In this document: positions 4,907 through 63,110 of the stretch, piece after piece | Layout of the letters: the number at the start of each line of letters is the position of its first letter | Numbering within the stretch: position 1 is the stretch's first letter | NCBI GenBank assembly: GCA_016872515.1 | Contig: VGZR01000008.1 | Location: forward strand, 4,112-68,111 | Length of the DNA stretch: 64,000 nucleotides | DNA from: SAR202 cluster bacterium | Lineage (GTDB): Bacteria; Chloroflexota; Dehalococcoidia; Lucifugimonadales; VGZR01 | Direction of reading: 5' to 3' | The notes under the pieces: generated by a model | Told to the model about the DNA's origin: nothing | The model's database searches: none | Seen by the model: only the letters and a program-made list of their open reading frames with translations | Made by a program: the position numbers and the translations under genes

Positions 4907-6940
4907 ATGGCACCGCCGGAAAACCTGTTCGGAGCCCTCCCCGTCTGGGTCGGCGCGTACGTTCTGTCTGCGCTGGCATTCACGGCGGCAGGTATCGTCC
5001 TGTACCAGCGTGCAGTCAGGCTGATTCTGCTGGGGAGACCATCCATTCGGTTCGACCAGCCCTTGAAGCGGCTCGTCGGCGCTTTGCCGTCAGTGTTCGG
5101 CCAGCGGAAGGTGCTCCAGAGCGTCTCACTACGGGACAGGGCCGGCTTGGCCCACTTCTTCATCTTCTGGGGCTTCATCTCCTTCTTCCTCAGCTACCTC
5201 ATCTTCATCTACGGCGACTCGGCTTGGCATCCCTTCTCGTCCAAGCTCCTCTCCCCGACCGGCGTGAAGGTCTTCGTCTGGTATCTGGAAGTCCTGGTGG
5301 CCGCGTTCCTGGCAGTGCTGGCCTGGGCGGCGGCGCGGCGGTGGGTGGCAAGACCACGCCGGCTGCGCTTCGACCTCACCCAACGGCCCGAGGCCGCCGT
5401 CATCCTCCTCCTCATCGCCTCGCTGATGGTGGCCACGCTGCTGGCTGGGGCGTTCCACGTCGCGGCAGGCGGCACCGGCCCCGAGGCAGCGTCACCCATC
5501 GGCGGGGCCATCGGCCGGCTGATGGCCGAGGCGGGCTTGCCACGGGACATCGCCAACGGGCTGCATGGCCTGTTCTGGTGGCTCCACCTCGGCATCATCC
5601 TGGGCTTCGCCATCTATATCCCGCTGTCCAAACACATGCACATCCTGGGAGCGCCCGTCAGCTTCTTCATGCGCCCGCTGGAACCGCGGGGGGCGCTGAG
5701 CACACCCACAGACCTGGAGACGGCGGAGCAGTTCGGCGCGTCGCGGGTCCAGGACTTCACCTGGAAGGAGCTGCTAGACGGCTACGCCTGCGCCGTCTGC
5801 GGCCGCTGCACCGAAGCCTGCCCCGCCAGCCTGAGCGGAAAGATCCTTTCTCCCATGCACATCGTCGAGAACCTGAAGGAGCACTTATTAGAGACCGGTC
5901 CGGCCCTGGCGAAGGGCCGCGACGAGCAGGAGGCAAAGCCTCTGCTGGGCCGCTGGGTCCAGCCGGAGGCGGTCTGGGACTGTCTGACCTGCGGCGCATG
6001 CGTCCAGGAGTGCCCGGTGGGGGTGGAGCATGTGCAGACCATCGTGGACGTACGCCGTCACCTCGTGATGGACAAGGCGGAAATGCCCGACTCAGCCCGC
6101 AGCGCGTTGCAGAGCATGGAGCAGCGCGGCCACCCCTGGCGGGGTACTACCTTCACCCGCACCACTTGGGCCGAAGGCCTTGGCGTCAATACCCTGGCGG
6201 AACACCCCCAGGCCGGGGTGCTCCTCTGGGTCGGGTGCACCGCTGCGTTGGAGAAGCGCAGCCAGGCCGTCGCGCGCTCCATGGCGCGGGTGCTCCAGCG
6301 GGCCGGAGTGGACTTCGCCATCCTGGGCGACGAGGAGGGCTGCACCGGCGACCCAGCGCGGCGCATGGGCAACGAATACCTCTACCAGATTATGGCCAAG
6401 CAGAACATCGAGACCCTCCGACGGTACAATGTCCGGAAAGTGCTGACCCTCTGCCCTCACTGCTTCAACGTGATGAAGAACGAGTACCCCCACCTGGGCG
6501 GCCTGTTCGAGGTCGTCCACTACAGCGAGTTCGTGGCGGAACTGATAGGCCAGGGCAAGCTCAAGCCCGCCGTCCCTGTCGAGGCCGCAGTCGCCTACCA
6601 CGACTCCTGCTACCTCGGCCGGCAGAACGGCGTGTACGACGCCCCGCGCCGCATCGCGTCCGCCATCCCTGGCGTGCGGCTCGTAGAGATGGAGCGGCGG
6701 CGCGAGCGCGGCTTCTGCTGCGGTGCTGGCGGAGGCCACATGTGGGTCGAAGAGAGCCGCGGCACGCGGGTGAACCACATGCGCACCGGCCAGTTCCTCG
6801 AAACGGACGCCGACACCGTCGGCGTGTCCTGTCCATTCTGCTTGCAAATGTTCACCGAGGGCATCGGCAGCAAGGGATTGGAGGGCAAGAAGCAGGCCCG
6901 TGACCTGCTCGAAGTGCTCGACGAGAGCCTGGGGACCTGA
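4907..6940 (+). CDS. Membrane-anchored Fe-S oxidoreductase (HdrD/GlpC/DsrK-like, CCG-domain protein)
   Basis: 677 aa. N-terminal multi-TM region, then two 4Fe-4S motifs (CAVCGRCTEACP, CLTCGACVQECP), then Cys-rich CCG-type segments (CPHCFNVMK, CCGAGGGHMW, CPFC). Confidence 0.8.
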   Translation: MAPPENLFGALPVWVGAYVLSALAFTAAGIVLYQRAVRLILLGRPSIRFDQPLKRLVGALPSVFGQRKVLQSVSLRDRAGLAHFFIFWGFISFFLSYLIFIYGDSAWHPFSSKLLSPTGVKVFVWYLEVLVAAFLAVLAWAAARRWVARPRRLRFDLTQRPEAAVILLLIASLMVATLLAGAFHVAAGGTGPEAASPIGGAIGRLMAEAGLPRDIANGLHGLFWWLHLGIILGFAIYIPLSKHMHILGAPVSFFMRPLEPRGALSTPTDLETAEQFGASRVQDFTWKELLDGYACAVCGRCTEACPASLSGKILSPMHIVENLKEHLLETGPALAKGRDEQEAKPLLGRWVQPEAVWDCLTCGACVQECPVGVEHVQTIVDVRRHLVMDKAEMPDSARSALQSMEQRGHPWRGTTFTRTTWAEGLGVNTLAEHPQAGVLLWVGCTAALEKRSQAVARSMARVLQRAGVDFAILGDEEGCTGDPARRMGNEYLYQIMAKQNIETLRRYNVRKVLTLCPHCFNVMKNEYPHLGGLFEVVHYSEFVAELIGQGKLKPAVPVEAAVAYHDSCYLGRQNGVYDAPRRIASAIPGVRLVEMERRRERGFCCGAGGGHMWVEESRGTRVNHMRTGQFLETDADTVGVSCPFCLQMFTEGIGSKGLEGKKQARDLLEVLDESLGT

Positions 6941-16378: not shown

Positions 16379-17286
16379 CCCAGCACCTGCTTCAGCAGCG
16401 CCATCCGGACCACCAACGCGTTCTCCGACTGCCGGTAGAACGCCAGCCGCTTGTCCTGCACCTCCACGATGAAGTCGCCGCTGCGCTGCATCGGGTCCAG
16501 GATGATGCAGTGCGGCTGCAGGACGGACATGAACTTCGCGTCTATCCGCAGGTTGAAGGCGTTGCGCGATCGGAGCAACTGTACGTGGGCGATGGTGCGC
16601 GGGCTGTTGAGGTAGATGGCGTCGGCATCGCGCAGCGCCTCATGTCCCTCAGCTCTGGCGAATTTCATGCCTCGCCCCTCGCAGTACTGGACCACCGCAG
16701 GGTCCACGTCGCCGCTGAACGGCACCAGCGTCACCTTCACGTCTTGGAACGTCGCTAGGCCGGTCAGCAGCGCTGCCACGTTCCGGTGCTCCATCCGCCC
16801 CATGATGGCCACGTGCGCGCCGTCCACCTTGCCAAGCTCGCGGGAGATGGTCAGGATGTCCGCCAGCGCCTGCGTCGGGTGGTCGTCCAGGCTGCCCCCG
16901 TTGACGATAGGCAGCGCGTCGGCGGCCTCGGCCCGGTCCATCACCCCACGCTCGCTGCTCCGCAGAACAACCACATCCACCCTCAGGCTCGCCAGCACCC
17001 CGATGACGTTGTCTATGAAGTTGGGCGTCGTCACAGGGAAGAACTGGGACGCGTCCTCGGTATGGTACCACTGCCCGCCCAGCAGACCCATCGCCCGCTC
17101 GAAGGACGTCCTCGTGATGAAGCTTGGCTCGTAGAAGAGGCAGTAGAGCGCGCGGCCACGTAGCTCCTGGCCTGGGACGCGGCGCTTGTCGAACTCGTGG
17201 CACAGCGGAAACAGCTCTCTCTCGATCCAGTCCCGTGTGATCTGCTTCGTGCTGGTCATGTGGCGGATCGCGGGCATCAATTCCAC
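16375..17286 (-). CDS. Aspartate/ornithine carbamoyltransferase-family protein, divergent active-site motifs
   Basis: 303 aa. Has YEPSFITRTSFE where STRTR is expected, retains DDHPTQALADI, and has ILDPMQR where HPLPR is expected. Confidence 0.65.
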   Translation of the reverse strand: MELMPAIRHMTSTKQITRDWIERELFPLCHEFDKRRVPGQELRGRALYCLFYEPSFITRTSFERAMGLLGGQWYHTEDASQFFPVTTPNFIDNVIGVLASLRVDVVVLRSSERGVMDRAEAADALPIVNGGSLDDHPTQALADILTISRELGKVDGAHVAIMGRMEHRNVAALLTGLATFQDVKVTLVPFSGDVDPAVVQYCEGRGMKFARAEGHEALRDADAIYLNSPRTIAHVQLLRSRNAFNLRIDAKFMSVLQPHCIILDPMQRSGDFIVEVQDKRLAFYRQSENALVVRMALLKQVLG

Positions 17287-17353
17287 CTTGCTGCATCATA
17301 TAGTTGCGCTAACGTGTCGTAGGCGCCAACTCAAGAGTTTACACTAAGACCCT

Positions 17354-17827
17354 ATGTGCCCACCCCGAATGACCAAGTCACCCATGAACATCAGGACAGC
17401 CGTGGCCATCCTCGCCTGGCTTCCCGTGCTGCTGTGGATGGCCGCCATCTTCATCATGTCCAGCTTCCCGGGCGTCGAGGTGGAGCGGAGGGCATCCAGG
17501 ATCGAGGAGTTGGTGCCGGTGGCCGGCAAGGCCGTTGTCCATCCGGCGACGTTCCATGTGGCCGTCTACGCCCTCCTCGCTGCCTTTACTTTCGTTTGGG
17601 CACGTTTCCAAAAGGGCCCCGTGCTAAGTTCCGGTTTGACCGCGGTGGTAGTCACCATCGTCTATGGCGGCACCGACGAGCTCCACCAGGCCTTCGTCCC
17701 TGGCCGCTCGTGCTCGGCGGCGGACGTCGGCTACGACGCTATGGGTGCCCTGCTCGGCGTGCTCGCCTGCTGGCTGGCTGTTCGAGCGGCGGCATGGCGG
17801 GCGCGCGCAAAGAATACCCCGCACTGA
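17354..17827 (+). CDS. VanZ-family membrane protein
   Basis: 157 aa, 4 TM segments, GGTDELHQAFVPGRSCSAADVGYDAMGA. The start may be one of the downstream ATGs (17369 or 17384). Confidence 0.7.
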   Translation: MCPPRMTKSPMNIRTAVAILAWLPVLLWMAAIFIMSSFPGVEVERRASRIEELVPVAGKAVVHPATFHVAVYALLAAFTFVWARFQKGPVLSSGLTAVVVTIVYGGTDELHQAFVPGRSCSAADVGYDAMGALLGVLACWLAVRAAAWRARAKNTPH

Positions 17828-17842
17828 AAAACCCTTGTCCTA

Positions 17843-17851
17843 TGCTATAAT
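17843..17851 (+). promoter_or_regulatory. Extended -10 element upstream of tRNA-Ala
   Basis: TGcTATAAT, ending 20 nt before the tRNA 5' end. No convincing -35. Confidence 0.4.
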
Positions 17852-17871
17852 CGGGACGAGACGGCGAGCGT

Positions 17872-17947
17872 GGGGATATAGCTCAACTGGGAGAGCACGG
17901 CGTTCGCAATGCCGGGGTTGGGGGTTCGACTCCCCCTATCTCCACCA
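17872..17947 (+). tRNA. tRNA-Ala (anticodon CGC), CCA encoded
   Basis: Hand-folded cloverleaf. Acceptor GGGGATA/TATCTCC with the G3:U70 Ala identity pair. D arm GCTC-AACTGGGA-GAGC. Anticodon arm CGGCG-TTCGCAA-TGCCG. T arm GGGGG-TTCGACT-CCCCC. Discriminator A plus CCA. Confidence 0.93.
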
Positions 17948-18002
17948 ACCTCTTCCCTCTTCCACGCCAGGCTCACCGCAATCCACCACCCGAGGGCCGT
18001 AT

Positions 18003-18230
18003 TTGCCCAACCGAGTCCTCATCTACACCCACCCGGAATGCACCTACTCCGCGGCGCTCAAGGACGACCTGAACACCGCCGGGACGAAGTACGAAGAGGT
18101 TGACCTTGCCCTGCACCCAGAGGCCTGGGCCGAGGTCGAGCAGTTCACCGGCGGAGACCGCATCACCCCTGTCATGCTCGAAGACGGCAAGGTCACCGTC
18201 GGCTACTACGGGGTTGGGTGAACCTTCTGA
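18003..18230 (+). CDS. Glutaredoxin-like small protein, candidate C-terminal U-x-x-stop selenoprotein (TGA 18219-18221 read as Sec)
   Basis: TTG 18003 with GAGGG 8 nt upstream. (M)PNRVLIYTHPECTYSAALKDDLNTAGTKYEEVDL...DRITPVMLEDGKVTVGYYGVG-TGA-ACC-TTC-TGA. Without recoding the CDS ends at 18221. Confidence 0.6.
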
Positions 18231-18233
18231 CCC

Positions 18234-18252
18234 GCGGGGCCGTCGGCCCCGC
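18234..18252 (+). promoter_or_regulatory. SECIS-like hairpin after TGA 18219
   Basis: GCGGGGCC (18234-18241), loop GUC, GGCCCCGC (18245-18252). Starts 12 nt after the TGA. No U-tract follows. Confidence 0.5.
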
Positions 18253-18277
18253 CGTAACCCAAGTCCAGGAGGACGAT

Positions 18278-18988
18278 GTGGTGAAACAAGTTACCGGCAA
18301 GGTCACCGTTGGCGAACCCGCCCCGGAGTTCACCCTGCCTGCCCTCGAAGGCAGAACGGTGCGCCTCGCAGACTACCGCGGCAAACGGCTCATTCTGTTC
18401 ATGTGGGCTTCGTGGTGAGCCTGCAGAGGCCAGTTGCCAGGTTGGCAGCAGTTCTACCAGAAGCACAGGGCCAGCGGCATCGAACTCCTCTCGGTCGCCC
18501 TGGACGCCCATGGCGCGGGCAGGGCCGAGCCATACCTGCGGCAGGCGAAGGCCGAGTTCGTGACCGTCGTGGACGAGCAGAACCTGCTGGGAGACCTCTA
18601 CGGCTTCAAGGCCATCCCCAACGGCTTCCTGATCGACGAGCAGGGCATCCTCAGGTACGGGGAACTGGGCACCTTCGACGTCCGCAAGCCAAAGACCCGA
18701 GCGCTGCTCGACCAGTGGGTCGCGGGCAAGGGTACCGGGGTGGCGCGATCAGCGGAGGCGCCCGGCAATCGCCACGCCCAGGCCAACGCCCACTTCCGTG
18801 CTGGAGAGGCTCTCTACCGCCAGGGCAAGGTGGACGAGGCCGTCGCCGAGTGGCGCAGGGCCGTCGCCCTGGAACCCGACAACTACATCATTCGTAAGCA
18901 GATTTGGGCCGTCCAGAACCCGGACAAGTTCTACGACGGCGACGTGGACTACGACTGGCAGGACGAACAACTGAAGAAGGGGTTATAG
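18278..18988 (+). CDS. TlpA/redoxin-like thiol-disulfide oxidoreductase with C-terminal TPR, candidate selenoprotein (TGA 18416-18418 read as Sec)
   Basis: Track ORFs 18218-18418 and 18434-18988 share a frame and are separated only by the TGA. Read-through gives ...RLILFMWASW-U-ACRGQLPGWQQFYQKHRASGIELLSVALD... Start GTG 18278 lies 5 nt after AGGAGG (18267-18272). Confidence 0.7.
18433..18449 (+). promoter_or_regulatory. SECIS-like hairpin after TGA 18416
   Basis: GTTGCCA (18433-18439), loop GGT, TGGCAGC (18443-18449). Seven bp including one G-U. Starts 14 nt after the TGA. Confidence 0.5.
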
Positions 18989-18989
18989 C

Positions 18990-19775
18990 GTGAAGGTCCA
19001 GGACCTGTTCAACATGACGGGCCGCGTGGCGGTCGTCACCGGCGGCGGGACCCATCTGGGCAAGGCGATGGCCGAGTCGCTGGCCGAACTGGGCGCCACC
19101 GTCGTCATCGCCAGCCGCCGCAAGGAGTTGTGCGAGGAGGTCGCCTCCGAGTTCCGCCAGCGGGGCCTGAAGTGCGAGGCGACGGGCTGCGACGTGACCG
19201 TCGAGGCCCAGGTCAACGACCTAGTGGACGCCATCGTGAAGCGCCATGGCCGCCTCGACGCCTTCATCTGCAACGCCGGCGGCAGCGTCCCCGCCGAAAA
19301 CACCCCCGACAGCTCGGTGGACGCCTTCTGGAAGACGGTCGAGATGAACGTCCTGAGCACCTTCATCTGCGTCCAGGCCGCCGCCAGGGTCATGGTCAAG
19401 CAGGGCCACGGACGCATCGTCACCGTCGGCTCCATCCACGGCTCCATGGGCACCGATAAGCGGATGTACACCCCCGGCCACAAGCGCTCGTCCATCGGCT
19501 ACTTCGCCGCCAAGGGCGGCGTCGTCAACCTGACCCGCGACCTGGCCGCAGAGCTCGGCGAGTACGGCATCACCGTCAACTGCCTCAGCCCGGGCCAGAT
19601 ACCCAAGCCGGGCGTCAACCCCGTCCTCTTGGAGCGGCTGGAGCAGCGCACGCCCCTGCGGCGCAACGGCGTCCCCGAAGACCTCAAGGGCGCCATCGCC
19701 CTCCTTGCCTCTCCGGCAGGCGCCTGGATCAGCGGCCAAGACCTGCGCGTGGACGGCGCCTGGAGCGTCTGGTAG
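18990..19775 (+). CDS. SDR-family oxidoreductase
   Basis: GRVAVVTGGGTHLGKAM (TGxxxxG) ...NAGG...YFAAKGG (YxxxK), 261 aa. Confidence 0.88.
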   Translation: MKVQDLFNMTGRVAVVTGGGTHLGKAMAESLAELGATVVIASRRKELCEEVASEFRQRGLKCEATGCDVTVEAQVNDLVDAIVKRHGRLDAFICNAGGSVPAENTPDSSVDAFWKTVEMNVLSTFICVQAAARVMVKQGHGRIVTVGSIHGSMGTDKRMYTPGHKRSSIGYFAAKGGVVNLTRDLAAELGEYGITVNCLSPGQIPKPGVNPVLLERLEQRTPLRRNGVPEDLKGAIALLASPAGAWISGQDLRVDGAWSVW

Positions 19776-20004
19776 CAGGGTGAGGCTCCTTCGGGCAGAA
19801 GACCACTGACCGGCGGGTTGACCAGGGGTAGCGGCCGTTTCAGGAGCGGCTTCCCTCCTCGCAGCACCTGCTGACACTCGCGATGGCAGCGGCAAGCGAG
19901 GAAACCCCTGCATCTACCGTCATCCCACAGCTACCGTGATTCTCCCTTTCTCCCTTGAACTAGGTCCTGAAGGGACCAAGGCAGAAACGTTTTCTCACGA
20001 ACGG

Positions 20005-20173
20005 ATGGCGGTATGACGCCATGTATTCTCCCTTGAGGAGTTTTCTATGAACTTGGCCCAGAACACCACCACGGACGCGATGCTCCCTTTCTACCTTGAA
20101 ATGGTAGGAAAAGGGAGAAATGTTTACGGCTCTCCGCTTGCTGTACGAAGCGGCGTATTCTCCCTTGAGGAGT
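20005..20173. repeat. Two hairpin + 19-nt motif units, plus a long bulged hairpin, in a non-coding convergent spacer
   Basis: Unit 1: ATGGCG-GTATGA-CGCCAT (20005-20022) followed directly by GTATTCTCCCTTGAGGAGT (20023-20041). Unit 2: CCGCTT-N8-AAGCGG (20134-20153) followed 1 nt later by the identical 19-mer (20155-20173). Between them lies a 13-bp bulged hairpin (20083-20117). Confidence 0.6.
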
Positions 20174-20232
20174 CCCAGGGATCCGCGCAGGCTTGAAGCA
20201 TCTGGCGAGGGGCTGTGCCGCAAGCCTCACCC

Positions 20233-20282
20233 CTTCAGGCCGAGCAGGCCGGCCTGAAGTCCCTCCCCCGTGTTCGGGGGAG
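20233..20282 (-). terminator. Two tandem hairpins downstream of the 2-hydroxyacid dehydrogenase gene
   Basis: CTCCCCCG-TGTT-CGGGGGAG (20263-20282) and CTTCAGGCC-N9-GGCCTGAAG (20233-20259), just past the stop at 20288. No clear U-tract. Confidence 0.45.
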
Positions 20283-20287
20283 AGCCC

Positions 20288-21262
20288 CTACACCACCACG
20301 TTCTGCGGCCGGCCCTCCAGGAAGGCGATGACGTTGTCCACGACACCCTCGTTGAGCAGCTCGACCCCTTCCGGGGTCATATCGGCGATGTGCGGCGTCA
20401 GCACCACCTGCTCGCACCTCAGGATGGGGTGGTCCGGCGGCAGCGGCTCCTTGTCGAACACATCCAGCGCCGCCCCCATCAGGTGTCCCGACACCAGCGA
20501 CTCCACCAGCGCCGCCGTGTCCACCAGGTCGCCGCGCGCCACGTTCACCAGCAGCGCCCCGGGCTTCATCATCGCCAGCTCCCGCCTGCCGAGCATCCCC
20601 TTGCTTTCGGGCGTGAGCCGCACGTGGAGGCTGACCACGTCGGACTGGCGGAGCAACTCTTCCAGCGTAACGAACCGCACACCCAGCTTGGCCGCCCGCT
20701 CCGGCGTCGGGTGGTACGTCCATGCGATGACCTTCATGCCGATGGCGTTGCCCAGCCGTGCCATCTCCGAGCCGATAGCGCCAGTGCCCACGATGCCCAG
20801 CGTCTTGCCCTGGATGAAAACGTTGTCGGCGCGGGCCCACCGGCCCTGTTTGAGCTGCGCCGTCTGGTAGGCCACCCGTTTCGCTGCGGCGAACATCAGC
20901 GCAAAGCCGTGCTCGGCCACAATCTTGGCCGTCCGCCCCGGTTGGTTGCAGATGGTGATACCCAACTCCTTCGCCGTCTTGAGGTCGAGCATATCGGTGC
21001 CGATGGAGCAGGTGGCGATGAGCCGCAGCTTCGGCAATTGCCGCAACGCCTCGCCCGGCCACTTCACCGCGCCCCGCGTGTTCAGGATGACGTCCGCGTC
21101 CGTGACCCGCGCCAGCTTCTCCGCGTCCGTGGCGGGCCGGTTGGTGTACAGCACGACCTCGCCGTAGGGCTTCAGCCGCTCCAGGTGGGCCGACCCCTGG
21201 ATCTGCGGCGGGTCGTCTCCCGGAACGACGAAGCGTAGCTTCCCCTGCCGTGTCTGTTTCAT
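20288..21262 (-). CDS. D-isomer-specific 2-hydroxyacid dehydrogenase family protein
   Basis: ATG 21262 after AGGGGGT. MKQTRQGKLRFVVPGDD...GKTLGIVGTGAIGSEMARL (NAD fold) ...RGDLVD...LTPHIA. Confidence 0.88.
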   Translation of the reverse strand: MKQTRQGKLRFVVPGDDPPQIQGSAHLERLKPYGEVVLYTNRPATDAEKLARVTDADVILNTRGAVKWPGEALRQLPKLRLIATCSIGTDMLDLKTAKELGITICNQPGRTAKIVAEHGFALMFAAAKRVAYQTAQLKQGRWARADNVFIQGKTLGIVGTGAIGSEMARLGNAIGMKVIAWTYHPTPERAAKLGVRFVTLEELLRQSDVVSLHVRLTPESKGMLGRRELAMMKPGALLVNVARGDLVDTAALVESLVSGHLMGAALDVFDKEPLPPDHPILRCEQVVLTPHIADMTPEGVELLNEGVVDNVIAFLEGRPQNVVV

Positions 21263-21385: not shown

Positions 21386-23359
21386 GTGATTTTGATTAGA
21401 AGGTTTTGGGCCGTCGTCCTGGCGGTCGTTTTCTTCATCCTGCTGGTAGGCACACTCGTTCTGTTCCGGGTTATGCAGACTGCCTTGGAGCCGGACTTTT
21501 ACAAAGAACAGCTCGTCAAAGCCGACATCTATAACTTCGCCCTCAACGACCTCCTGACCTCCTCGATCAACGACGCCCGCAACCTCCCGCCCGAAAAGTT
21601 CCCGGGCTCCCAAAAGTCCAACGCCCTCGTCGCCTCCGGCCTGACCACCGAACAGATCACCGCTTCCATGAGCCGCGCTGTGCCCGCCGACTGGCTGCAG
21701 AGCGAGGCGGAGATGGTCGTGGACCAGCTGGGTGTCTATATCGTTGGCAAGCGCGACGAGTTCGAACTGAAGCCACAGTTAGGCGACCGGGCCGCTATCA
21801 TCGTGGACGAGGCCCAGAGCCTGCTGCGTCAGTCCAACACCTATGACCTCGTCTTCACCGAGTTCGTTGACCCGTTCGTGGAGGAGGCCGCGGGTGGCCA
21901 GCTTCTCCTGGGGATACGGGCCAGCCCCGAGCGGCTTTCCGAGGCGGTGCGCGCGGTGTTTCCGCCCGAGTGGATATCGGCCCAAGTTGACGTACTGATA
22001 GACGGGGCATCTCCTTACCTCACCGGCCAGCAGCCAAGCTTCTCCATCACCATCAACCTCTCGGACCGAGTGCCGCTCCTGTTGGAAGAGGTGAAGGGCA
22101 TCCTCCGCGAGTCCGACGCCTACGACCTTCTCTACACACAGGTCGTCGAGCCGCGCGTCACCGAGACCCTCCAGAGCCAGGTCGCCTTGCCCGCAGGCAT
22201 CACCCTCACCCGCGAGGAGATCCTGGACGCTCTGCGGCGCGTCGCTCCGCCGGAGTGGGTAGAGGCGCAGGTGGAGGCGTTCATAGGTTCGACAGGCGGC
22301 TACCTGGTTGGTACGTCAGACACCATCGGCATCCAGGTGGACCTGCGTGAGAACAAGCAGGAGGCAGCCGTCGTTCTGGGGGAGATTGCGGACCGCAGGC
22401 TGGAGGGAATCGTCTCCGGCCTGCCCGTTTGCACGGCCCAGGAGTCTCTCGACCTAGCCGCCGATATCGCAGCGGGCCGGTTCACGGAGATGCCCTCGTG
22501 CCGGCCCTCTTTCCTGACTCCTGAGACGTTGAAGCCTCTCCTCGACCTCGACCTCAGCGGCGCCATCAGCGCCACGGTGCTCTCGAATATCCCCGACACC
22601 GTCGAGTTCAACGAGTCGTTCCTCCGGCAGGCTGTCGCCTCGGACGGCGGCGGCGCAGAAGACGCGCTGGAACGCCTCGACCAGGTACGCGACTGGACGA
22701 AGAACGGCATCACCTTTACCGACAACGACCTGCGCGAGCGGCTCGGCGACAACGCCGCACGACTTGATGACCTGACTTCCTTCATGGCCGACTCGTTCAC
22801 TTATACCCATGAGGACTTCCGCGAGGACCTGAGCGCCCAGAGCGGCACCGAGGCTCTCGATACTATTGACACCGTGCGGGATGCGCTCAAGCGGGTGCGC
22901 AGCCTGCTGTGGCTCGCCTACCTCGTCCTGGCGCTTCTGCTGGTGGCCATCGGCTTCCTCGGAGGGCGGAACTGGCGCAGCCGGGTCATGTGGGCGGCGG
23001 CGCCTGTCATTATCTCCGGCCTAATCCTCGTCATAGTCTCCGGCCCGGTGTACAGCGGCGTGGTCGGTGGCAGGATTGACACCGCCCGTACCAACGCCAT
23101 CTCCGATCTCGACCAAGCGGACGGCTTCTATAACACTGAGGTGTTGCTCATCAATAAGGGGTTCGAGGTCGTTGAGAACGTCCCTGGCGAGTTCGTGGGC
23201 GGCATCCTCACCTCGGGCGTGTGGTTGCTGGTCATCGGCATCGCCGTCATCCTCGGCGCCGCTTTCTGGCCGCAGCTACGGCAGCGCGTGGCGGGGATGC
23301 GTGGTGGCGGCGCCGCAGAGCCGCCTGCCACAAGCCCGCCCTCACCGCCGAAACAGTAG
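21386..23359 (+). CDS. Hypothetical membrane protein with three tandem ~95-aa repeats
   Basis: 657 aa. N-terminal TM helix, then repeats marked by AVPADWLQSEAEMVVDQLGVYIVG / VFPPEWISAQVDVLIDGASPYLTG / VAPPEWVEAQVEAFIGSTGGYLVG. C-terminal TM cluster and Pro-rich tail. Confidence 0.7.
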   Translation: MILIRRFWAVVLAVVFFILLVGTLVLFRVMQTALEPDFYKEQLVKADIYNFALNDLLTSSINDARNLPPEKFPGSQKSNALVASGLTTEQITASMSRAVPADWLQSEAEMVVDQLGVYIVGKRDEFELKPQLGDRAAIIVDEAQSLLRQSNTYDLVFTEFVDPFVEEAAGGQLLLGIRASPERLSEAVRAVFPPEWISAQVDVLIDGASPYLTGQQPSFSITINLSDRVPLLLEEVKGILRESDAYDLLYTQVVEPRVTETLQSQVALPAGITLTREEILDALRRVAPPEWVEAQVEAFIGSTGGYLVGTSDTIGIQVDLRENKQEAAVVLGEIADRRLEGIVSGLPVCTAQESLDLAADIAAGRFTEMPSCRPSFLTPETLKPLLDLDLSGAISATVLSNIPDTVEFNESFLRQAVASDGGGAEDALERLDQVRDWTKNGITFTDNDLRERLGDNAARLDDLTSFMADSFTYTHEDFREDLSAQSGTEALDTIDTVRDALKRVRSLLWLAYLVLALLLVAIGFLGGRNWRSRVMWAAAPVIISGLILVIVSGPVYSGVVGGRIDTARTNAISDLDQADGFYNTEVLLINKGFEVVENVPGEFVGGILTSGVWLLVIGIAVILGAAFWPQLRQRVAGMRGGGAAEPPATSPPSPPKQ

Positions 23360-60358: not shown

Positions 60359-60932
60359 CGCCCGAGGCCGCCATCAGCACCAGGGTGTGGTACAACAGGT
60401 CGGCGACCTCCTCGGTCAGCCGTCCCTTGTCTCCTTTGACTCCGGCGATGGCCGTCTCGCCTGCCTCCTCCACCACCTTCTGGCTGATGCGGTCCACGCC
60501 CTCCGCCAGCAGCCTCGCGGTATAGCTGCCCTCCGGCTTGTCGCGCTTGCGGCCCTGGATAACGCCGTACAGCTCCTCCAGCACACCCGGCCCCTTGTCG
60601 GCGTGCTCGAACGATGGCAGCGCCTCCAGCGGCGTGAAGAAGCACGTGCGGTTCCCGGTATGGCAGATGGGGCCGCCGGGTTCCACCTTGACGAGGATGA
60701 CGTCTCCATCACAGTCCAGGGTTGCTGACTTGACGTGCATGAAGTTGCCTGAGATCTCGCCCTTGTGCCAGAAGTCGGCGCGGCTACGGCTGTAGAACCA
60801 CACGTCGCCGCCTTCCAGTGTCCGCCTCAGGGAGCCGGGGCTCATGTACCCGAGCATGATGACCTCGCCGGTGGAGGCGTTCTGCGCTATGGCGGGGATG
60901 AGACCCTTCTCGTCGAGTATGGCCATGACCAT
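60312..60932 (-). CDS. hisI: Bifunctional phosphoribosyl-AMP cyclohydrolase / phosphoribosyl-ATP diphosphatase
   Basis: ATG 60932, 5 nt after GGAAGGTG. MVMAILDEKGLIPAIAQNASTGEVIMLGYM...FYSRSRADFWHKGEISGN...CDGD (HisI), then ...VVEEAGETAIA... (HisE). The track ORF to 61079 is an over-extension into hisF. Confidence 0.9.
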   Translation of the reverse strand: MVMAILDEKGLIPAIAQNASTGEVIMLGYMSPGSLRRTLEGGDVWFYSRSRADFWHKGEISGNFMHVKSATLDCDGDVILVKVEPGGPICHTGNRTCFFTPLEALPSFEHADKGPGVLEELYGVIQGRKRDKPEGSYTARLLAEGVDRISQKVVEEAGETAIAGVKGDKGRLTEEVADLLYHTLVLMAASGVKPEAVWRQLRERRR

Positions 60933-60960
60933 GGCTGCACCTTCCATCAGGATTGAGTGT

Positions 60961-61782
60961 CTATGCCGCGGCTTTCTGGCGTACCGGGATGCCCCGTCCG
61001 GCCAGGTAGTGCTTGGCTTGTTCGATGCGAAACGTCCCGTAGTGAAAGATGCTGGCGGCGAGCACCGCGTCGGCTTCACCGGCCACCAGCGCCTCGTACA
61101 GGTGCTCCAGGGTGCCCGCGCCGCCGCTAGCGATGACCGGCACGGAGACCTGCTCCGAGATGGCCCGCAACAGCTCCAGGTCGTAGCCGGCCTTCCGCCC
61201 GTCCGCGTCCATGCTCGTGACGAGAAGCTCGCCAGCGCCGAGTTCGGCCGACCGCGCCGCCCACTTCACCGCGTCTATGCCGGTCGGCGTGCGCCCTCCG
61301 TGGGTGAATACTTCCCACCGCGACGCCTCGCCGAGGGCCAGGCCCGCGGGCACCGAGGGCGGCGCTACCCTGCCCACCTCGACCCGCTTCGCGTCAATGG
61401 CCACCACGATGCACTGGCTGCCGAAGAAGTCGGCAGCCTCTTTGATGACACCTGGGTTCTGGACGGCGGTGGTGTTGAGCGAGGCCTTGTCGGCTCCCGC
61501 TTCGAGCATCTTGCGGACATGCTCGACCTTGCGGATGCCGCCGCCGACGGTGAGGGGGATGAAGACCTTTTCGGAGACCTTCCTGACCACGTCCACCATC
61601 GTCTCCCGCGACTCAGCGGACGCGGTGATGTCGAGGAAGACCAATTCGTCGGCGCCTTCGCGGTCGTAGAAGGAGGCCATCGCGGCCGGGTCACCCGCAT
61701 CCCGCAGGTTGATGAAGCTGACGCCCTTGACGACCCGCCCACGGTCAACATCCAGGCATGGGATGATGCGCTTGGAGAGCAT
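60961..61782 (-). CDS. hisF: Imidazole glycerol phosphate synthase cyclase subunit
   Basis: [32 protein letters not shown]...LDITAS...GGGI..., 273 aa. Confidence 0.95.
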
Positions 61783-61791
61783 AGCAGCGCG

Positions 61792-62361
61792 CTACTTGCG
61801 CAGGAGCAGCATGTACTGGGCGTCGTTGAGGTGGTAGCGGCCGGTGAAGCGGAAACCGAGCTTCTCCGCTATCTGGCGCAGCGCATCCTCGCCGACGCGC
61901 CGATCAACTGGAGGGCCATCCCCGCTCTCCTTCGTGTTCCACTCGAGGGCAGCCAGCCAGCCGCCCCGGCGGAGGACGCGGTGTGCGTCCTTGAGCAGTT
62001 TTTTGGGGTCGTCCACATTACTGAAGGCGAACGGCGCGAGGATGCCGTCGAGGCTGTCGTCCTCGAGGTTGAGCTTGCGCTCCTTGGTCAGGACTGTTTC
62101 GACGTTGGTGAGGCGCAGCTTTTCCACGGCCTGTTTGGTGGCGTCCAGGGCGTCCTGCTGGGTGTCCACGGCGTAGATCCTGCCGTCGAACACGTACTTG
62201 GCGAGGGGAACAGTGAAGTAACCCGTGCCGCAGGCGATGTCGGCCACGGTGTGGTAGGGCATGACAGGGATGAGGGACATGACGCGGTGGGTGTCCAACG
62301 TTTCCAGCCGCTGAGGAGTGAGGGCGGTTTCTCTGTTCTTGGTTTCGGCCTTTATGGGCAT
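61792..62361 (-). CDS. Class I SAM-dependent methyltransferase embedded in the his operon
   Basis: ...VADIACGTGYFTVPLAKYV (motif I) ...RVLRRGGWLAALEW. ATG 62361 after GAGG. GTG 62376, overlapping the hisA stop, is the alternative. Confidence 0.8.
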   Translation of the reverse strand: MPIKAETKNRETALTPQRLETLDTHRVMSLIPVMPYHTVADIACGTGYFTVPLAKYVFDGRIYAVDTQQDALDATKQAVEKLRLTNVETVLTKERKLNLEDDSLDGILAPFAFSNVDDPKKLLKDAHRVLRRGGWLAALEWNTKESGDGPPVDRRVGEDALRQIAEKLGFRFTGRYHLNDAQYMLLLRK

Positions 62362-62372
62362 CGTTCGAGACC

Positions 62373-63110
62373 TCACACTCTTTTTGCTGAGATGGCACCG
62401 GTTTCACGGATAGCGCTGCGCAGGTCAACCCCACCAGTATACAAGGCTTTGCCGACGATGGCGGCCTCGGCCCCAAGCAGCGCGAGGCGTTTCAGGTGGC
62501 CTATGGAAGAGATGCCGCCCGCCGCCATGGCAGCTAGGCCTGACCCGTCCACCAGTTGCTGGACCCCTTCGAAGTTCGGCTCGGTCAGCGTCCCGTCCCG
62601 CGACACGTCGGTGTACATGATGCGCAGGACGCCCCAACCCGCCACTCGTTTGGCCAAGGACAGGGCCGTCGTACGGCTGGCCTGCTCCCATCCGCGCACG
62701 ACGACGTAGCCATCCTTGGCGTCAACGCTGACGATGACGCGGCCGGAGCCCAGCATGCCGCACACCTCTTTCACCAGGTCGGGCGTCTCCAAGGCGGCGG
62801 TGCCCAGGATGACTCTGTCCACGCCACGGTCTGCAACGGCCTTGGCCGACTCCAACGTCCTGATGCCACCGCCAAGTTGGATGGGGACGCCTGCGGCGGC
62901 GGCAATCTTTGCAACCGCATCCAGGTTGGCGGGCACGCCAGCGCGCGCTCCGTCCAGGTCCACGACGTGGAGCCTGGTAGCGCCCTCCTCGACCCAGCGC
63001 AAGGCCACGGCCACAGGGTCGCCGGAGTACAACGTCTCGCGGGAGTAGTCCCCCTGGTACAGCCGCACGCACCTGCCGCCGCGCAGGTCTATCGCGGGGA
63101 CTACCTCCAT
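62373..63110 (-). CDS. hisA: 1-(5-phosphoribosyl)-5-[(5-phosphoribosylamino)methylideneamino]imidazole-4-carboxamide isomerase
   Basis: ATG 63110. MEVVPAIDLRGGRCVRLYQGDYSRETLYSGDPVAVALRW...HVVDLDGA. The track ORF to 63587 is an over-extension through hisH. Confidence 0.93.
   Translation of the reverse strand: MEVVPAIDLRGGRCVRLYQGDYSRETLYSGDPVAVALRWVEEGATRLHVVDLDGARAGVPANLDAVAKIAAAAGVPIQLGGGIRTLESAKAVADRGVDRVILGTAALETPDLVKEVCGMLGSGRVIVSVDAKDGYVVVRGWEQASRTTALSLAKRVAGWGVLRIMYTDVSRDGTLTEPNFEGVQQLVDGSGLAAMAAGGISSIGHLKRLALLGAEAAIVGKALYTGGVDLRSAIRETGAISAKRV

What the first reader, a model, noticed from the sequence alone, without database searches (positions are those of the whole stretch)
17843..18988. 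Compact two-gene module of adjacent selenoprotein candidates behind tRNA-Ala
Downstream of tRNA-Ala(CGC), and sharing its TGcTATAAT element or read-through, lie two thioredoxin-fold genes separated by only 47 nt (18231-18277). Each carries a candidate Sec codon followed by a GC-rich 7-8 bp hairpin with a 3-nt G/U-containing loop at near-identical spacing: the stems start 12 and 14 nt after the UGA, and the loops lie 21-24 nt after it. The first protein has a monothiol C-T-Y-S plus a C-terminal U-T-F. The second has W-U-A-C plus TPR repeats. Two Sec-bearing partners encoded side by side suggest a dedicated selenol-based redox relay, with the small Grx-like protein as reductant or shuttle for the TlpA-like protein. 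The repeated hairpin geometry is hard to explain by chance.
Basis: inference. Interest (0 to 1): 0.65.

Follow-up and report, generated by a model that had tools for sequence, protein, structure and literature searches.

The report
Two adjacent known-type selenoprotein genes
Two neighbouring small redox-protein genes in a marine-type Chloroflexota genome each really do use a UGA codon for selenocysteine, guided by an RNA hairpin, but both belong to selenoprotein kinds that are already known, so the only modestly new point is that the two genes travel together in many genomes.

Summary
Gene 1 (18003-18230) is a 75-residue glutaredoxin-like protein ending G-V-G-U-T-F-stop. It scores above the curated cut-off of NCBIfam NF041211, "UXX-star (seleno)protein family 2". 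Gene 2 (18278-18988) is a TlpA/ResA-like thioredoxin-fold protein with W-A-S-W-U-A-C and a C-terminal TPR/helical domain.

All 79 related genome loci that could be scored carry TGA at the gene-2 site. Of 33 loci with gene 1 upstream, 31 have TGA-x-x-stop plus a hairpin whose stem shows compensatory changes in 6 of 8 pairs. Cys-type relatives have CxxC, a longer tail and no hairpin. The gene-2 hairpin lies in coding sequence but shows synonymous-site covariation and a strong codon bias.

The pair, always in the same order, occurs in 33 of 80 genomes with gene 2. It also occurs in 39 of 58 assessable metagenomic Sec-type gene-1 loci, while the other neighbours change. tRNA-Ala is not a conserved part of it.

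The "redox relay" idea remains an inference. Gene 1 is already named in public annotation. Gene 2 is a short sister of the curated WAxxUGC family. Selenocysteine machinery could not be checked; none lies in the window.

The parts
17824..17851 (+). Promoter-like site (CTGAAA, 16 nt, TG-n-TATAAT) upstream of the tRNA. It may drive the tRNA and, by read-through, the two genes.
   Evidence: the only sigma-70-like site in 17300-20400 (10 of 12 matches, with a TG extension). No terminator-like site in that stretch. Function is not tested.
17872..17947 (+). tRNA-Ala(CGC). It is a neighbour, not a conserved part of the module.
   Evidence: Rfam tRNA 63.2 bits. Directly upstream of gene 1 only in the window, L001 and L024.
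18003..18230 (+). Gene 1: a 75-residue glutaredoxin-like UXX-star family 2 selenoprotein. TTG start, C13-T-Y-S, G-V-G-U73-T-F, stop.
   Evidence: NF041211 113 bits against cut-off 100; NF041212 94.9 against 66; Pfam Glutaredoxin; PDB Grx/NrdH; 31 of 33 relatives have TGA-x-x-stop.
18219..18221 (+). UGA read as selenocysteine in gene 1, third residue from the end.
   Evidence: It aligns with TGA in 98 relatives and with Cys (TGT/TGC) in 15.
18234..18252 (+). SECIS hairpin of gene 1: 8 bp, loop GUC. It lies after the stop codon, in the 47-nt intergenic spacer.
   Evidence: fold; 90.7% of cells paired against 74.4% in shuffles, and compensatory changes in 6 of 8 pairs; covariance model, 49.9 bits, E = 3e-11, the only significant hit in the window; hits in 58 of 67 independent Sec-form loci and in none of 13 Cys-form loci.
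18278..18988 (+). Gene 2: a 236-residue TlpA/ResA-like thioredoxin-fold selenoprotein (W-A-S-W-U47-A-C) with a C-terminal TPR/helical domain. GTG start 5 nt after AGGAGGA; no signal sequence is evident.
   Evidence: Gene callers split it into 66-aa and 184-aa pieces.
18416..18418 (+). UGA read as selenocysteine in gene 2, at the first position of the CxxC-type redox motif.
   Evidence: TGA in the window and in all 79 related genome loci that could be scored; the Cys homologue P0042 has WASWCTC.
18433..18449 (+). SECIS hairpin of gene 2: 7 bp, loop GGU. It lies inside the coding sequence, over codons Q-L-P-G-W-Q-Q.
   Evidence: the five core pairs are paired in at least 73 of 74 sequences; pair 19-33 is CG 62, UA 8, UG 4, with no mismatch; the Leu codon is NUG in 78 of 79 against 49% elsewhere in the gene, and CUG/CAG against UUG/CAA covary.
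18782..18883 (+). The single confidently detected TPR repeat of gene 2. It is followed (18890-18973) by the most conserved stretch of the protein, IIRKQIWA..P..FY..D.DY.WQ.EQ.
   Evidence: TPR_2, 33.1 bits; invariant columns; helices 164-233 of the model.
18990..19775 (+). A generic SDR-family oxidoreductase gene that starts 2 nt after the gene-2 stop. It is possibly co-transcribed and is only partly conserved with the pair.
   Evidence: no specific family reached; present downstream in 18 loci, 14 of them paired.

Best explanation
Shown by sequence and comparison: the stretch holds two real selenoprotein genes on one strand.

- Gene 1 is a member of the UXX-star (seleno)protein family 2. This is a glutaredoxin-fold protein with a single N-terminal Cys (C-T-Y-S) and a selenocysteine three residues from the C-terminus. 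The stop codon comes only two codons after the UGA, so its SECIS hairpin sits in the untranslated spacer just behind the stop.
- Gene 2 is a TlpA/ResA-like thioredoxin-fold protein. It probably acts in the cytoplasm, since no signal sequence is evident. The first Cys of its CxxC motif is selenocysteine (W-U-A-C), and its SECIS hairpin is built from the codons for Q-L-P-x-W-Q.

Inferred from established knowledge of bacterial Sec decoding: SelB bound to Sec-tRNA(Sec) recognises each hairpin, whose loop lies about 21-24 nt after the UGA with G/U at its start, and inserts Sec instead of terminating.

Inferred from conserved adjacency only, about 45% likely: the two proteins exchange reducing equivalents. 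A Cys13-Sec73 selenenylsulfide in gene 1 would couple with the Sec47/Cys49 centre of gene 2. The direction of flow is unknown. Transcription from the tRNA-Ala promoter is plausible in this genome, but it is not a general feature of the pair.
For: Gene 1 family and fold:
- NF041211 113 bits (cut-off 100) and NF041212 94.9 bits (cut-off 66).
- Pfam Glutaredoxin and PDB Grx/NrdH matches, with C13 on the first active-site Cys.

Gene 1 relatives:
- 31 of 33 genome relatives and 67 of 80 metagenome relatives have TGA-x-x-stop.
- Sec forms always have CxxS (94 of 94). Cys forms always have CxxC (11 of 11) and a tail C-S-F-Y-[DE], with no hairpin.

Hairpin 1:
- Compensatory changes in 6 of 8 pairs; 0 of 500 shuffles reach the observed score.
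- A covariance model built from genome loci finds it in 58 of 67 independent Sec-form loci and in 0 of 13 Cys-form loci.

Gene 2:
- AhpC-TSA/Redoxin plus TPR.
- Model of a 61%-identical homologue: pLDDT 88.6, with DsbE/ResA/TlpA as the best PDB folds (target-normalised TM 0.82-0.88).
- TGA in the window and in all 79 related loci that could be scored. A Cys homologue, WASWCTC, exists.

Hairpin 2:
- Core pairs are essentially always paired (at least 73 of 74 sequences). One pair covaries at synonymous sites (CG 62, UA 8, UG 4, none mismatched).
- Leu codon NUG in 78 of 79 against 49% elsewhere.

TGA as a stop:
- TGA still ends 14 of 57 window genes, including gene 1 itself.

Pairing:
- 33 of 80 genomes across many gene-2 clusters with GC from 39% to 66%.
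- 39 of 58 Sec-type gene-1 loci.
- Always the same order and strand, while no other neighbour is conserved in more than 18 loci.

Lineage:
- Dehalococcoidia MAGs with 46-49 selenoproteins are on record (PMC13326102).
Against: - No selA, selB, selD or tRNA-Sec gene lies in the 64-kb window. The rest of the genome could not be read, so Sec decoding is inferred, not shown.
- Hairpin 2 on its own is not unusually stable (z = +0.5). Most of its stem is fixed by conserved amino acids (L-P, W-Q), which a Cys homologue also keeps. Its RNA-level support therefore rests on one covarying pair and a codon bias, and the sequences are not phylogenetically independent.
- The functional partnership rests on adjacency alone. 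47 of 80 genomes have gene 2 without gene 1 within 6 kb. 19 of 58 Sec-type gene-1 loci have other neighbours.
- Rfam has no matching SECIS family.
Confidence: 0.85

Rival explanations
1. Both are true selenoprotein genes, but the adjacency has no functional meaning. Each protein works on its own with general cellular reductants or substrates, and the pair is retained synteny or a shared expression unit for selenium-dependent genes.
For: - 47 of 80 genomes keep gene 2 without gene 1 within 6 kb.
- 19 of 58 Sec-type and 8 of 11 Cys-type gene-1 loci have other downstream genes, such as an AhpD-like protein, a membrane protein or a second Uxx-star copy.
- Gene 2 stays Sec-type when gene 1 is Cys-type (L029, L055, L087, L091).
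Against: - The pair persists in the same order and strand across gene-2 identities down to about 50% and GC from 39% to 66%.
- Every other neighbour turns over, and the next best neighbour is shared by only 18 loci.
- NCBIfam also lists a fusion protein with a GUXX-star domain (NF045501). This suggests, from its name only, that such domains work together with a second Sec domain.
Confidence: 0.4
2. The pair is functional but works the other way round or in another chemistry. The small UXX-star protein would be the client (for example a metal- or metalloid-binding carrier whose Cys/Sec pair must be kept reduced), and the TlpA-like selenoprotein would be its reductant, as TlpA reduces the copper chaperone ScoI.
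For: - The review PMC13188914 states that Sec in the UXX-star family may act as a metal-binding ligand or interact with unknown substrates.
- TlpA-ScoI and TlpA-CoxB mixed-disulfide structures are among the structural matches of gene 2 (4txo, 4txv).
Against: - No metal-handling gene is conserved next to the pair.
- Gene 2 has no evident export signal, unlike TlpA. This is by reading the sequence.
- Nothing here tests the direction of flow.
Confidence: 0.2
3. The UGAs are ordinary stops or a genome-wide reassigned codon. The stretch would then hold a 72-aa glutaredoxin, a 66-aa fragment and a 184-aa TPR protein, as automatic gene callers annotate, or UGA would code for Trp or Gly.
For: - Gene callers split the genes exactly this way.
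- One JGI record translates the codon as W (P0002).
- No sel genes lie in the window.
Against: - The thioredoxin fold is split by the UGA at the catalytic Cys position.
- TGA is kept in the window and in all 79 related loci that could be scored, while coding continues in frame.
- Sec/Cys pairs exist in both families.
- Hairpins accompany TGA and are absent from Cys forms.
- TGA terminates 14 of 57 window genes, including gene 1 two codons after its Sec codon.
Confidence: 0.03

Closest known systems
UXX-star (seleno)protein family 2 (NCBIfam NF041211; Haft & Tolstoy 2025, as listed in review PMC13188914)
   Same: - Score above the curated cut-off.
- Glutaredoxin-like, about 72-75 aa, with the G-x-G-U-x-x-stop C-terminus.
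- Both Sec and Cys forms exist.
- NCBI already gives this name to homologues in Chloroflexi and SAR202 MAGs.
   Different: Nothing defining differs. Added here:
- The Sec forms are strictly CxxS and the Cys forms strictly CxxC, with a two-residue longer tail.
- The post-stop SECIS covaries.
- About two thirds of marine Sec-type members are followed by the gene-2 family.

Whether the original paper reports these points could not be checked, because the paper is not held.
ResA-like WAxxUGC motif-containing protein (NCBIfam NF041054) and the 'Prx-like (UGC-containing)' / 'UGC-containing TlpA disulfide reductase' selenoproteins of the GOS survey (PMC2398784; PMC13188914)
   Same: - TlpA/ResA-type thioredoxin fold.
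- W-A-x-W-U-[G/A]-C redox motif with Sec as the first residue.
- It is the best-scoring curated family (163.5 bits).
   Different: - The score is about half the cut-off of 300, for the window protein and for five relatives (145-165 bits).
- 236 aa against a 354-position profile, and the first ~73 profile positions are absent.
- The window has U-A-C rather than U-G-C.
- It has its own very conserved C-terminal motif (IRKQIWA...FY..D.DY.WQ.EQ).
- Public annotation treats its members as truncated redoxin or TPR proteins, not as selenoproteins.
Selenoprotein glutaredoxin reducing selenoprotein MsrA in Clostridium sp. OhILAs ('tandem use of selenocysteine', Kim et al. 2011, cited in PMC13188914)
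   Same: It is a precedent for a Sec-containing Grx-fold protein serving another selenoprotein.
   Different: - That Grx has Sec in the UxxC active site and its partner is MsrA.
- Here Sec is at the C-terminus, the partner is a TlpA-like protein, and no biochemistry exists.
- This is a resemblance of idea only and was not tested.
Bacterial SECIS elements (E. coli fdhF type) and C-terminal Sec with an untranslated SECIS (mammalian thioredoxin reductase G-C-U-G-stop)
   Same: - A hairpin a fixed short distance 3' of the UGA, with G/U at the start of the apical loop.
- For gene 1, Sec close to the C-terminus, with the SECIS outside the reading frame.

The comparison with these published elements is from my own knowledge. 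The geometry here was measured.
   Different: - The hairpins are short (7-8 bp, 3-nt loop) and have no bulged U.
- No Rfam family matches.
- SelB binding is not tested.

Membership tests
UXX-star (seleno)protein family 2 (NF041211) | Whole-protein HMM score at or above the curated cut-off | tested here: met
   113 bits against a cut-off of 100. The parent model NF041212 gives 94.9 against 66 (with U written as C).
UXX-star (seleno)protein family 2 (NF041211) | C-terminus Sec-x-x-stop (G-x-G-U-x-x) | tested here: met
   G-V-G-UGA-ACC-TTC-TGA at 18210-18230. The same pattern occurs in 98 relatives.
UXX-star (seleno)protein family 2 (NF041211) | Glutaredoxin-like fold with an N-terminal active-site Cys | tested here: met
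   Pfam Glutaredoxin 34.7 bits. A profile search hits PDB Grx/NrdH, with C13 aligned to the first Cys of CPYC.
UXX-star (seleno)protein family 2 (NF041211) | Selenocysteine is actually incorporated | not testable with these tools
   Needs proteomics or 75Se labelling. The support is indirect: a covarying SECIS and Sec/Cys pairs.
ResA-like WAxxUGC motif-containing protein (NF041054) | Whole-protein HMM score at or above the curated cut-off (300 bits) | tested here: not met
   163.5 bits for the window protein. Five relatives, including a Cys form, score 145-165 bits.
ResA-like WAxxUGC motif-containing protein (NF041054) | W-A-x-x-U-G-C redox motif | tested here: inconclusive
   The window has W-A-S-W-U-A-C. 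Relatives have U-G-C, U-A-C, U-V-C, U-S-C, U-D-C and U-R-C.
ResA-like WAxxUGC motif-containing protein (NF041054) | Long architecture (profile of 354 positions) | tested here: not met
   236 aa. The best-scoring aligned stretch covers profile positions 74-201.
TlpA/ResA/DsbE extracytoplasmic thiol-disulfide oxidoreductases | Thioredoxin fold with a W-C-x-x-C type centre | tested here: met
   Sequence matches to PDB DsbE, ResA and TlpA. The model of a homologue superposes with target-normalised TM 0.82-0.88.
TlpA/ResA/DsbE extracytoplasmic thiol-disulfide oxidoreductases | N-terminal signal peptide or membrane anchor | tested here: not met
   By reading only: the protein starts V-V-K-Q-V-T-G-K-V-T-V-G-E-P-A-P-E-F and runs directly into the fold, with no hydrophobic segment. 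No signal-peptide predictor was available.
Peroxiredoxins (AhpC/TSA, PxxxT/SxxC) | Peroxidatic Cys in a P-x-x-x-T/S-x-x-C motif, and scores reaching the Prx family cut-offs | tested here: not met
   The motif is L-F-M-W-A-S-W-U-A-C, a CxxC type. The NCBIfam peroxiredoxin models score 17-25 bits against cut-offs of 140-270. The Pfam AhpC-TSA hit reflects the shared fold.
Bacterial SECIS element | Hairpin a short fixed distance 3' of the UGA, with G/U at the start of the apical loop | tested here: met
   Stems start 12 and 14 nt after the UGA; the loops are GUC and GGU. In most of 98 Sec-type gene-1 relatives the loop starts 17-24 nt after the UGA and begins (C)GU.
Bacterial SECIS element | Base pairing maintained by compensatory change | tested here: met
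   Hairpin 1: 6 of 8 pairs have changes on both sides. Hairpin 2: one pair covaries at synonymous sites, with no mismatch in 74 sequences, which is weaker support.
Bacterial SECIS element | Recognition by SelB, and presence of selA/selB/selC/selD in the genome | not testable with these tools
   There are no sel genes and no tRNA-Sec in the window.

The most novel reading that the evidence does not exclude
The pair is a dedicated selenium-based redox couple with its own docking mechanism. The conserved TPR/helical C-terminal domain of gene 2 would bind the free U-x-F-COOH tail of the UXX-star protein, as TPR domains bind C-terminal peptides elsewhere. This would bring Sec73 of gene 1 to Sec47 of gene 2, so that electrons pass through an intermolecular Se-Se or Se-S bond. 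On this reading, the strict switch from CxxC plus a longer tail (Cys forms) to CxxS plus U-x-x-stop (Sec forms) would be the signature of a swinging selenol arm. The predicted pairing of gene 1's last codons with gene 2's ribosome-binding site would tie gene-2 translation to read-through of gene 1.
Probability: 0.15. Interest if true: 0.6.

Novelty: new member of a known kind. Interest (0 to 1): 0.33.

Why it matters
- Practical value: gene 2 and hundreds of its relatives are currently annotated as two fragments, or as N-terminally truncated 'TPR' or 'redoxin' proteins. They form a coherent UxxC selenoprotein family that no curated model captures. A model for it would correct the annotation of many Dehalococcoidia/SAR202 genomes.
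- Biological value: a selenoprotein gene pair that stays together while everything around it changes is a testable lead to the still unknown function of the UXX-star proteins.
- Limits: it does not change what is known about selenocysteine decoding or about the kinds of proteins that use it.

Tried and rejected
- Rfam scans of 17000-20000 and 19700-20400 found only the tRNA and no SECIS family.
- The paper that defined UXX-star family 2 (Haft & Tolstoy 2025, PMC12013261) is not held. I could not check whether the pairing is already published. Full-text searches for the family names found only one review.
- DNA of the Cys homologue of gene 2 (P0042) could not be fetched. The hairpin-absent-in-Cys-form control exists only for gene 1.
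A 61%-identical homologue was modelled instead.
- A scan of the window for other in-frame TGA genes gave three candidates. I dismissed them from their positions in the gene map as an antisense frame or gene junctions. The filter was strict enough that it did not list gene 2 itself, so it was not validated.
- The SECIS-1 model found no second element in the window. Its weak hit at 20194 (13.1 bits, E = 0.12) has no x-x-stop and lies in a non-coding repeat region, so I rejected it.
- Sec machinery was looked for among the window's genes and not found. This is uninformative for a 64-kb piece.
- tRNA-Ala as part of the module was rejected.
- Peroxiredoxin identity for gene 2 was rejected.
- A hairpin with similar geometry at window 15 is a chance match. 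The TGA there is followed in frame by TAG and lies antisense to a gene.
Full report
**What is there**

The window is 63.7% G+C. Around the finding it carries housekeeping genes: GroEL, ATP synthase, the glycine cleavage system, and NusA-IF2-TruB.

- tRNA-Ala(CGC) lies at 17872-17947. It is preceded by the only sigma-70-like site of the 3-kb neighbourhood: CTGAAA, 16 nt, then TATAAT with a TG extension, at 17824-17851. No terminator-like site follows it.
- Gene 1 starts 55 nt after the tRNA, at TTG 18003, 6 nt after GAGGG. It reads MPNRVLIYTHPECTYS...GYYGVG-UGA-T-F-TGA and ends at 18230.
- After a 47-nt spacer with AGGAGGA, gene 2 starts at GTG 18278. It reads ...RLILFMWASW-UGA-ACRGQLPGWQQ... 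and ends at TAG 18988.
- Automatic gene callers cut these into a 72-aa glutaredoxin, a 66-aa AhpC/TSA fragment and a 184-aa TPR protein.

- Hairpin 1 is GCGGGGCC-GUC-GGCCCCGC at 18234-18252. Its stem starts 12 nt after the UGA.
- Hairpin 2 is GUUGCCA-GGU-UGGCAGC at 18433-18449. Its stem starts 14 nt after the UGA.
- In the window, 3.6% of all TGA triplets have a stem of at least 7 bp at such a distance, and about 1% have a SECIS-like one. The window alone is therefore suggestive only. Hairpin 1 is more stable than shuffles (z = -2.8), but hairpin 2 is not (z = +0.5).

**Identity of gene 1**

- With U written as C, it scores 113 bits on NCBIfam NF041211, "UXX-star (seleno)protein family 2" (cut-off 100). 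It scores 94.9 bits on the parent model NF041212 (cut-off 66).
- It has a Pfam Glutaredoxin domain. Its profile hits PDB glutaredoxins and NrdH, with Cys13 on the first Cys of CPYC.
- The family is listed with the motif GxGU in a 2026 review that cites Haft & Tolstoy 2025 (PMC13188914).
- NCBI already names homologues "UXX-star (seleno)protein family 2" in Chloroflexi and SAR202 MAGs.

Gene 1 is therefore a member of a known family.

**Identity of gene 2**

- Pfam gives AhpC-TSA/Redoxin plus one TPR repeat.
- PDB sequence matches are DsbE, ResA, StoA and TlpA.
- An AlphaFold model of a 61%-identical full-length homologue (pLDDT 88.6, pTM 0.86) shows a thioredoxin fold followed by five helices. 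Foldseek matches cover only the thioredoxin part, with TM to target of 0.82-0.88.
- The best curated family is NF041054, "ResA-like WAxxUGC motif-containing protein". The window protein scores 163.5 bits against a cut-off of 300, and the first ~73 profile positions are missing. Five relatives score 145-165 bits.
- It is therefore a short sister family of a curated selenoprotein family. It falls within the long-known class of UxxC/UGC Prx- or TlpA-like selenoproteins (PMC2398784; PMC13188914).
- Peroxiredoxin models score far below their cut-offs, and the motif is of the CxxC type.

**Comparative evidence for Sec in gene 2**

A protein search returned 438 relatives. Nearly all are 160-190 aa, that is, called only from downstream of the UGA. 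One is a natural Cys form (WASWCTC). One JGI record has the codon translated as W.

A scan of one genome per species gave 80 loci, mostly Dehalococcoidia with some Caldilineaceae, Ardenticatenaceae and Promineifilaceae. All 79 of them in which the site could be scored carry TGA there, in the context W-[AG]-S-W-U-x-C.

The hairpin sits on the codons Q-L-P-x-W-Q.

- Its five core pairs are paired in at least 73 of the 74 distinct sequences.
- The pair made by the first base of the Leu codon and the third base of the Gln codon is C-G in 62, U-A in 8 and U-G in 4, and is never mismatched.
- The Leu codon is CUG or UUG in 78 of 79 loci, against 49% of Leu codons elsewhere in the same genes.
- These sequences are related to one another, so the P values are not strict. 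The Cys homologue also keeps Q-L-P-G-W-Q. The RNA-level evidence for hairpin 2 is therefore real but moderate.

**Comparative evidence for Sec in gene 1**

- In 33 of the 80 genome loci, a gene-1 relative lies directly upstream of gene 2. Of these, 31 read G-x-G-TGA-x-[F/Y]-stop and two read G-I-G-C-S-F-Y-[DE]-stop.
- The region after the UGA aligns to a hairpin with the apex GCC-GUY-GGC. In this alignment 90.7% of cells are paired against 74.4% in shuffles, 6 of 8 pairs carry changes on both sides, and slid controls fall to 28-53%.
- A covariance model built from these 31 sequences finds one significant site in the window, 18219-18267 (49.9 bits). It finds nothing new in the unpaired loci.
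- In 80 independent metagenome loci found with gene 1, the model hits 58 of the 67 Sec-form loci at the UGA and none of the 13 Cys-form loci.
- Across all relatives, Sec forms have CxxS (94 of 94 with a readable motif) and Cys forms have CxxC (11 of 11). Mean folding energy of the 47 nt after the codon is -14.5 kcal/mol for Sec forms and -6.4 kcal/mol for Cys forms.
- TGA is still a stop in this genome. It ends 14 of 57 window genes, including gene 1 itself.

**The pair**

- Order and strand are always the same. The distance from one UGA to the other is 177-350 nt, apart from one outlier locus (L062) at 1086 nt.
- Paired loci are spread over many gene-2 clusters, with GC from 39% to 66%.
- No other neighbour is shared by more than 18 loci. 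That neighbour is the generic SDR gene, which in the window starts 2 nt after gene 2.
- In the reverse direction, 39 of 58 assessable Sec-type gene-1 loci are followed by gene 2. In every case where the site could be read, gene 2 has TGA.
- However, 47 of 80 genomes have gene 2 alone within 6 kb, and gene 1 has other neighbours in 19 loci.
- tRNA-Ala precedes gene 1 only in the window, L001 and L024.

**Mechanism**

- Shown: two reading frames that need UGA decoding, each with a conserved hairpin at SECIS distance.
- Inferred from general knowledge of bacterial Sec insertion: SelB bound to Sec-tRNA(Sec) recognises the hairpins. For gene 1 the element is untranslated because the stop follows two codons after the UGA.
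- Inferred from the CxxS/CxxC switch: Sec73 takes over the role of the second Cys and pairs with Cys13.
- Inferred from adjacency only: the two proteins exchange reducing equivalents. The direction is open. A client-and-reductant relation like ScoI with TlpA, or a metal-binding role as the review suggests, is equally possible.
- Sec machinery could not be checked. The lineage is known to be rich in selenoproteins (46-49 per Dehalococcoidia MAG; PMC13326102).

**Verdict**

The reading "two selenoproteins with SECIS elements" is right. The relay remains an untested hypothesis. The tRNA link is local to this genome and two relatives.

Both proteins belong to known kinds. Gene 1 is already curated and named. 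The useful additions are these:

- Gene 2 represents a large, systematically mis-annotated UxxC selenoprotein family without a curated model.
- It forms a recurrent two-gene unit with UXX-star family 2.

Noticed in passing
L013:5983-5991: One gene-2 homologue reads TGA-GGG-TGA (W-A-S-W-U-G-U), so both redox positions are UGA, 6 nt apart and upstream of a single hairpin. It is either a UxU double-Sec variant or a C-to-A sequencing error.
   Followed up: partly
L029, L055 and 13 metagenome loci (e.g. L087:1999-2240, L091, L117, L118): Cys-type UXX-star relatives always combine CxxC at the active site with a tail two residues longer (C-S-F-Y-D/E-stop) and no downstream hairpin. Sec types always have CxxS and U-x-x-stop. 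The correlation is perfect in about 105 sequences.
   Followed up: yes
L150:21-580: Two UXX-star-like genes lie in tandem, each with a hit of the SECIS-1 model. The second ends G-G-C-U-A-L, with Cys directly before Sec.
   Followed up: no
window, all 57 mapped genes: TAG is the commonest stop codon (31), ahead of TGA (14) and TAA (12), in a genome piece of 64% G+C where TGA would usually dominate. This may reflect avoidance of TGA in a selenoprotein-rich lineage. The gene map came from a crude GC3-based ORF picker.
   Followed up: no
window 19935-20175 (within the 500-nt gap 19776-20288): A unit of about 135 nt is duplicated in tandem: repeats at 20008/20140 (34 nt, 82% identical) and at 19935/20076 (25 nt, 88% identical). 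It contains GTATTCTCCCTTGAGGAGT twice. There is no Rfam match and no convincing ORF.
   Followed up: partly
window 18223-18229 with 18266-18272: The last codons and stop of gene 1 (CCUUCUG) are predicted to pair with the ribosome-binding site of gene 2 (CCAGGAGG) around the SECIS hairpin. At least 4 such pairs are predicted in 19 of 56 paired loci. This could couple gene-2 translation to ribosomes reaching the end of gene 1, or it could be trivial pyrimidine-purine complementarity. No control was run.
   Followed up: partly
L052, L053, L057, L059, L063, L065, L071, L078, L079 (about 6590-6790); L009, L033, L035 (about 5640-5780): tRNA genes often flank gene 2 in other genomes: tRNA-Asp(GTC) about 50-150 nt downstream, and tRNA-Val(TAC) about 90-230 nt upstream. 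Different tRNAs, the same kind of neighbourhood as tRNA-Ala in the window.
   Followed up: no
window 21386-23359 (+) and 60844-62709 (+): Two long ORFs (657 and 621 aa) have good coding signal but no Pfam hit. The first also has no NCBIfam hit and is conserved next to the pair in 10 loci.
   Followed up: no
L039:5869-6561: This gene-2 homologue, in a long-read MAG, carries an in-frame TAA/TAG inside the thioredoxin domain (VVD*ENLL). It is a pseudogene or an assembly error.
   Followed up: no
P0002 (JGI metagenome protein): This full-length gene-2 homologue in a public collection has W at the Sec position (WASWWAC). The contig was evidently translated with a TGA=Trp table. This is a second way, besides truncation, in which these selenoproteins are mis-recorded.
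   Followed up: no
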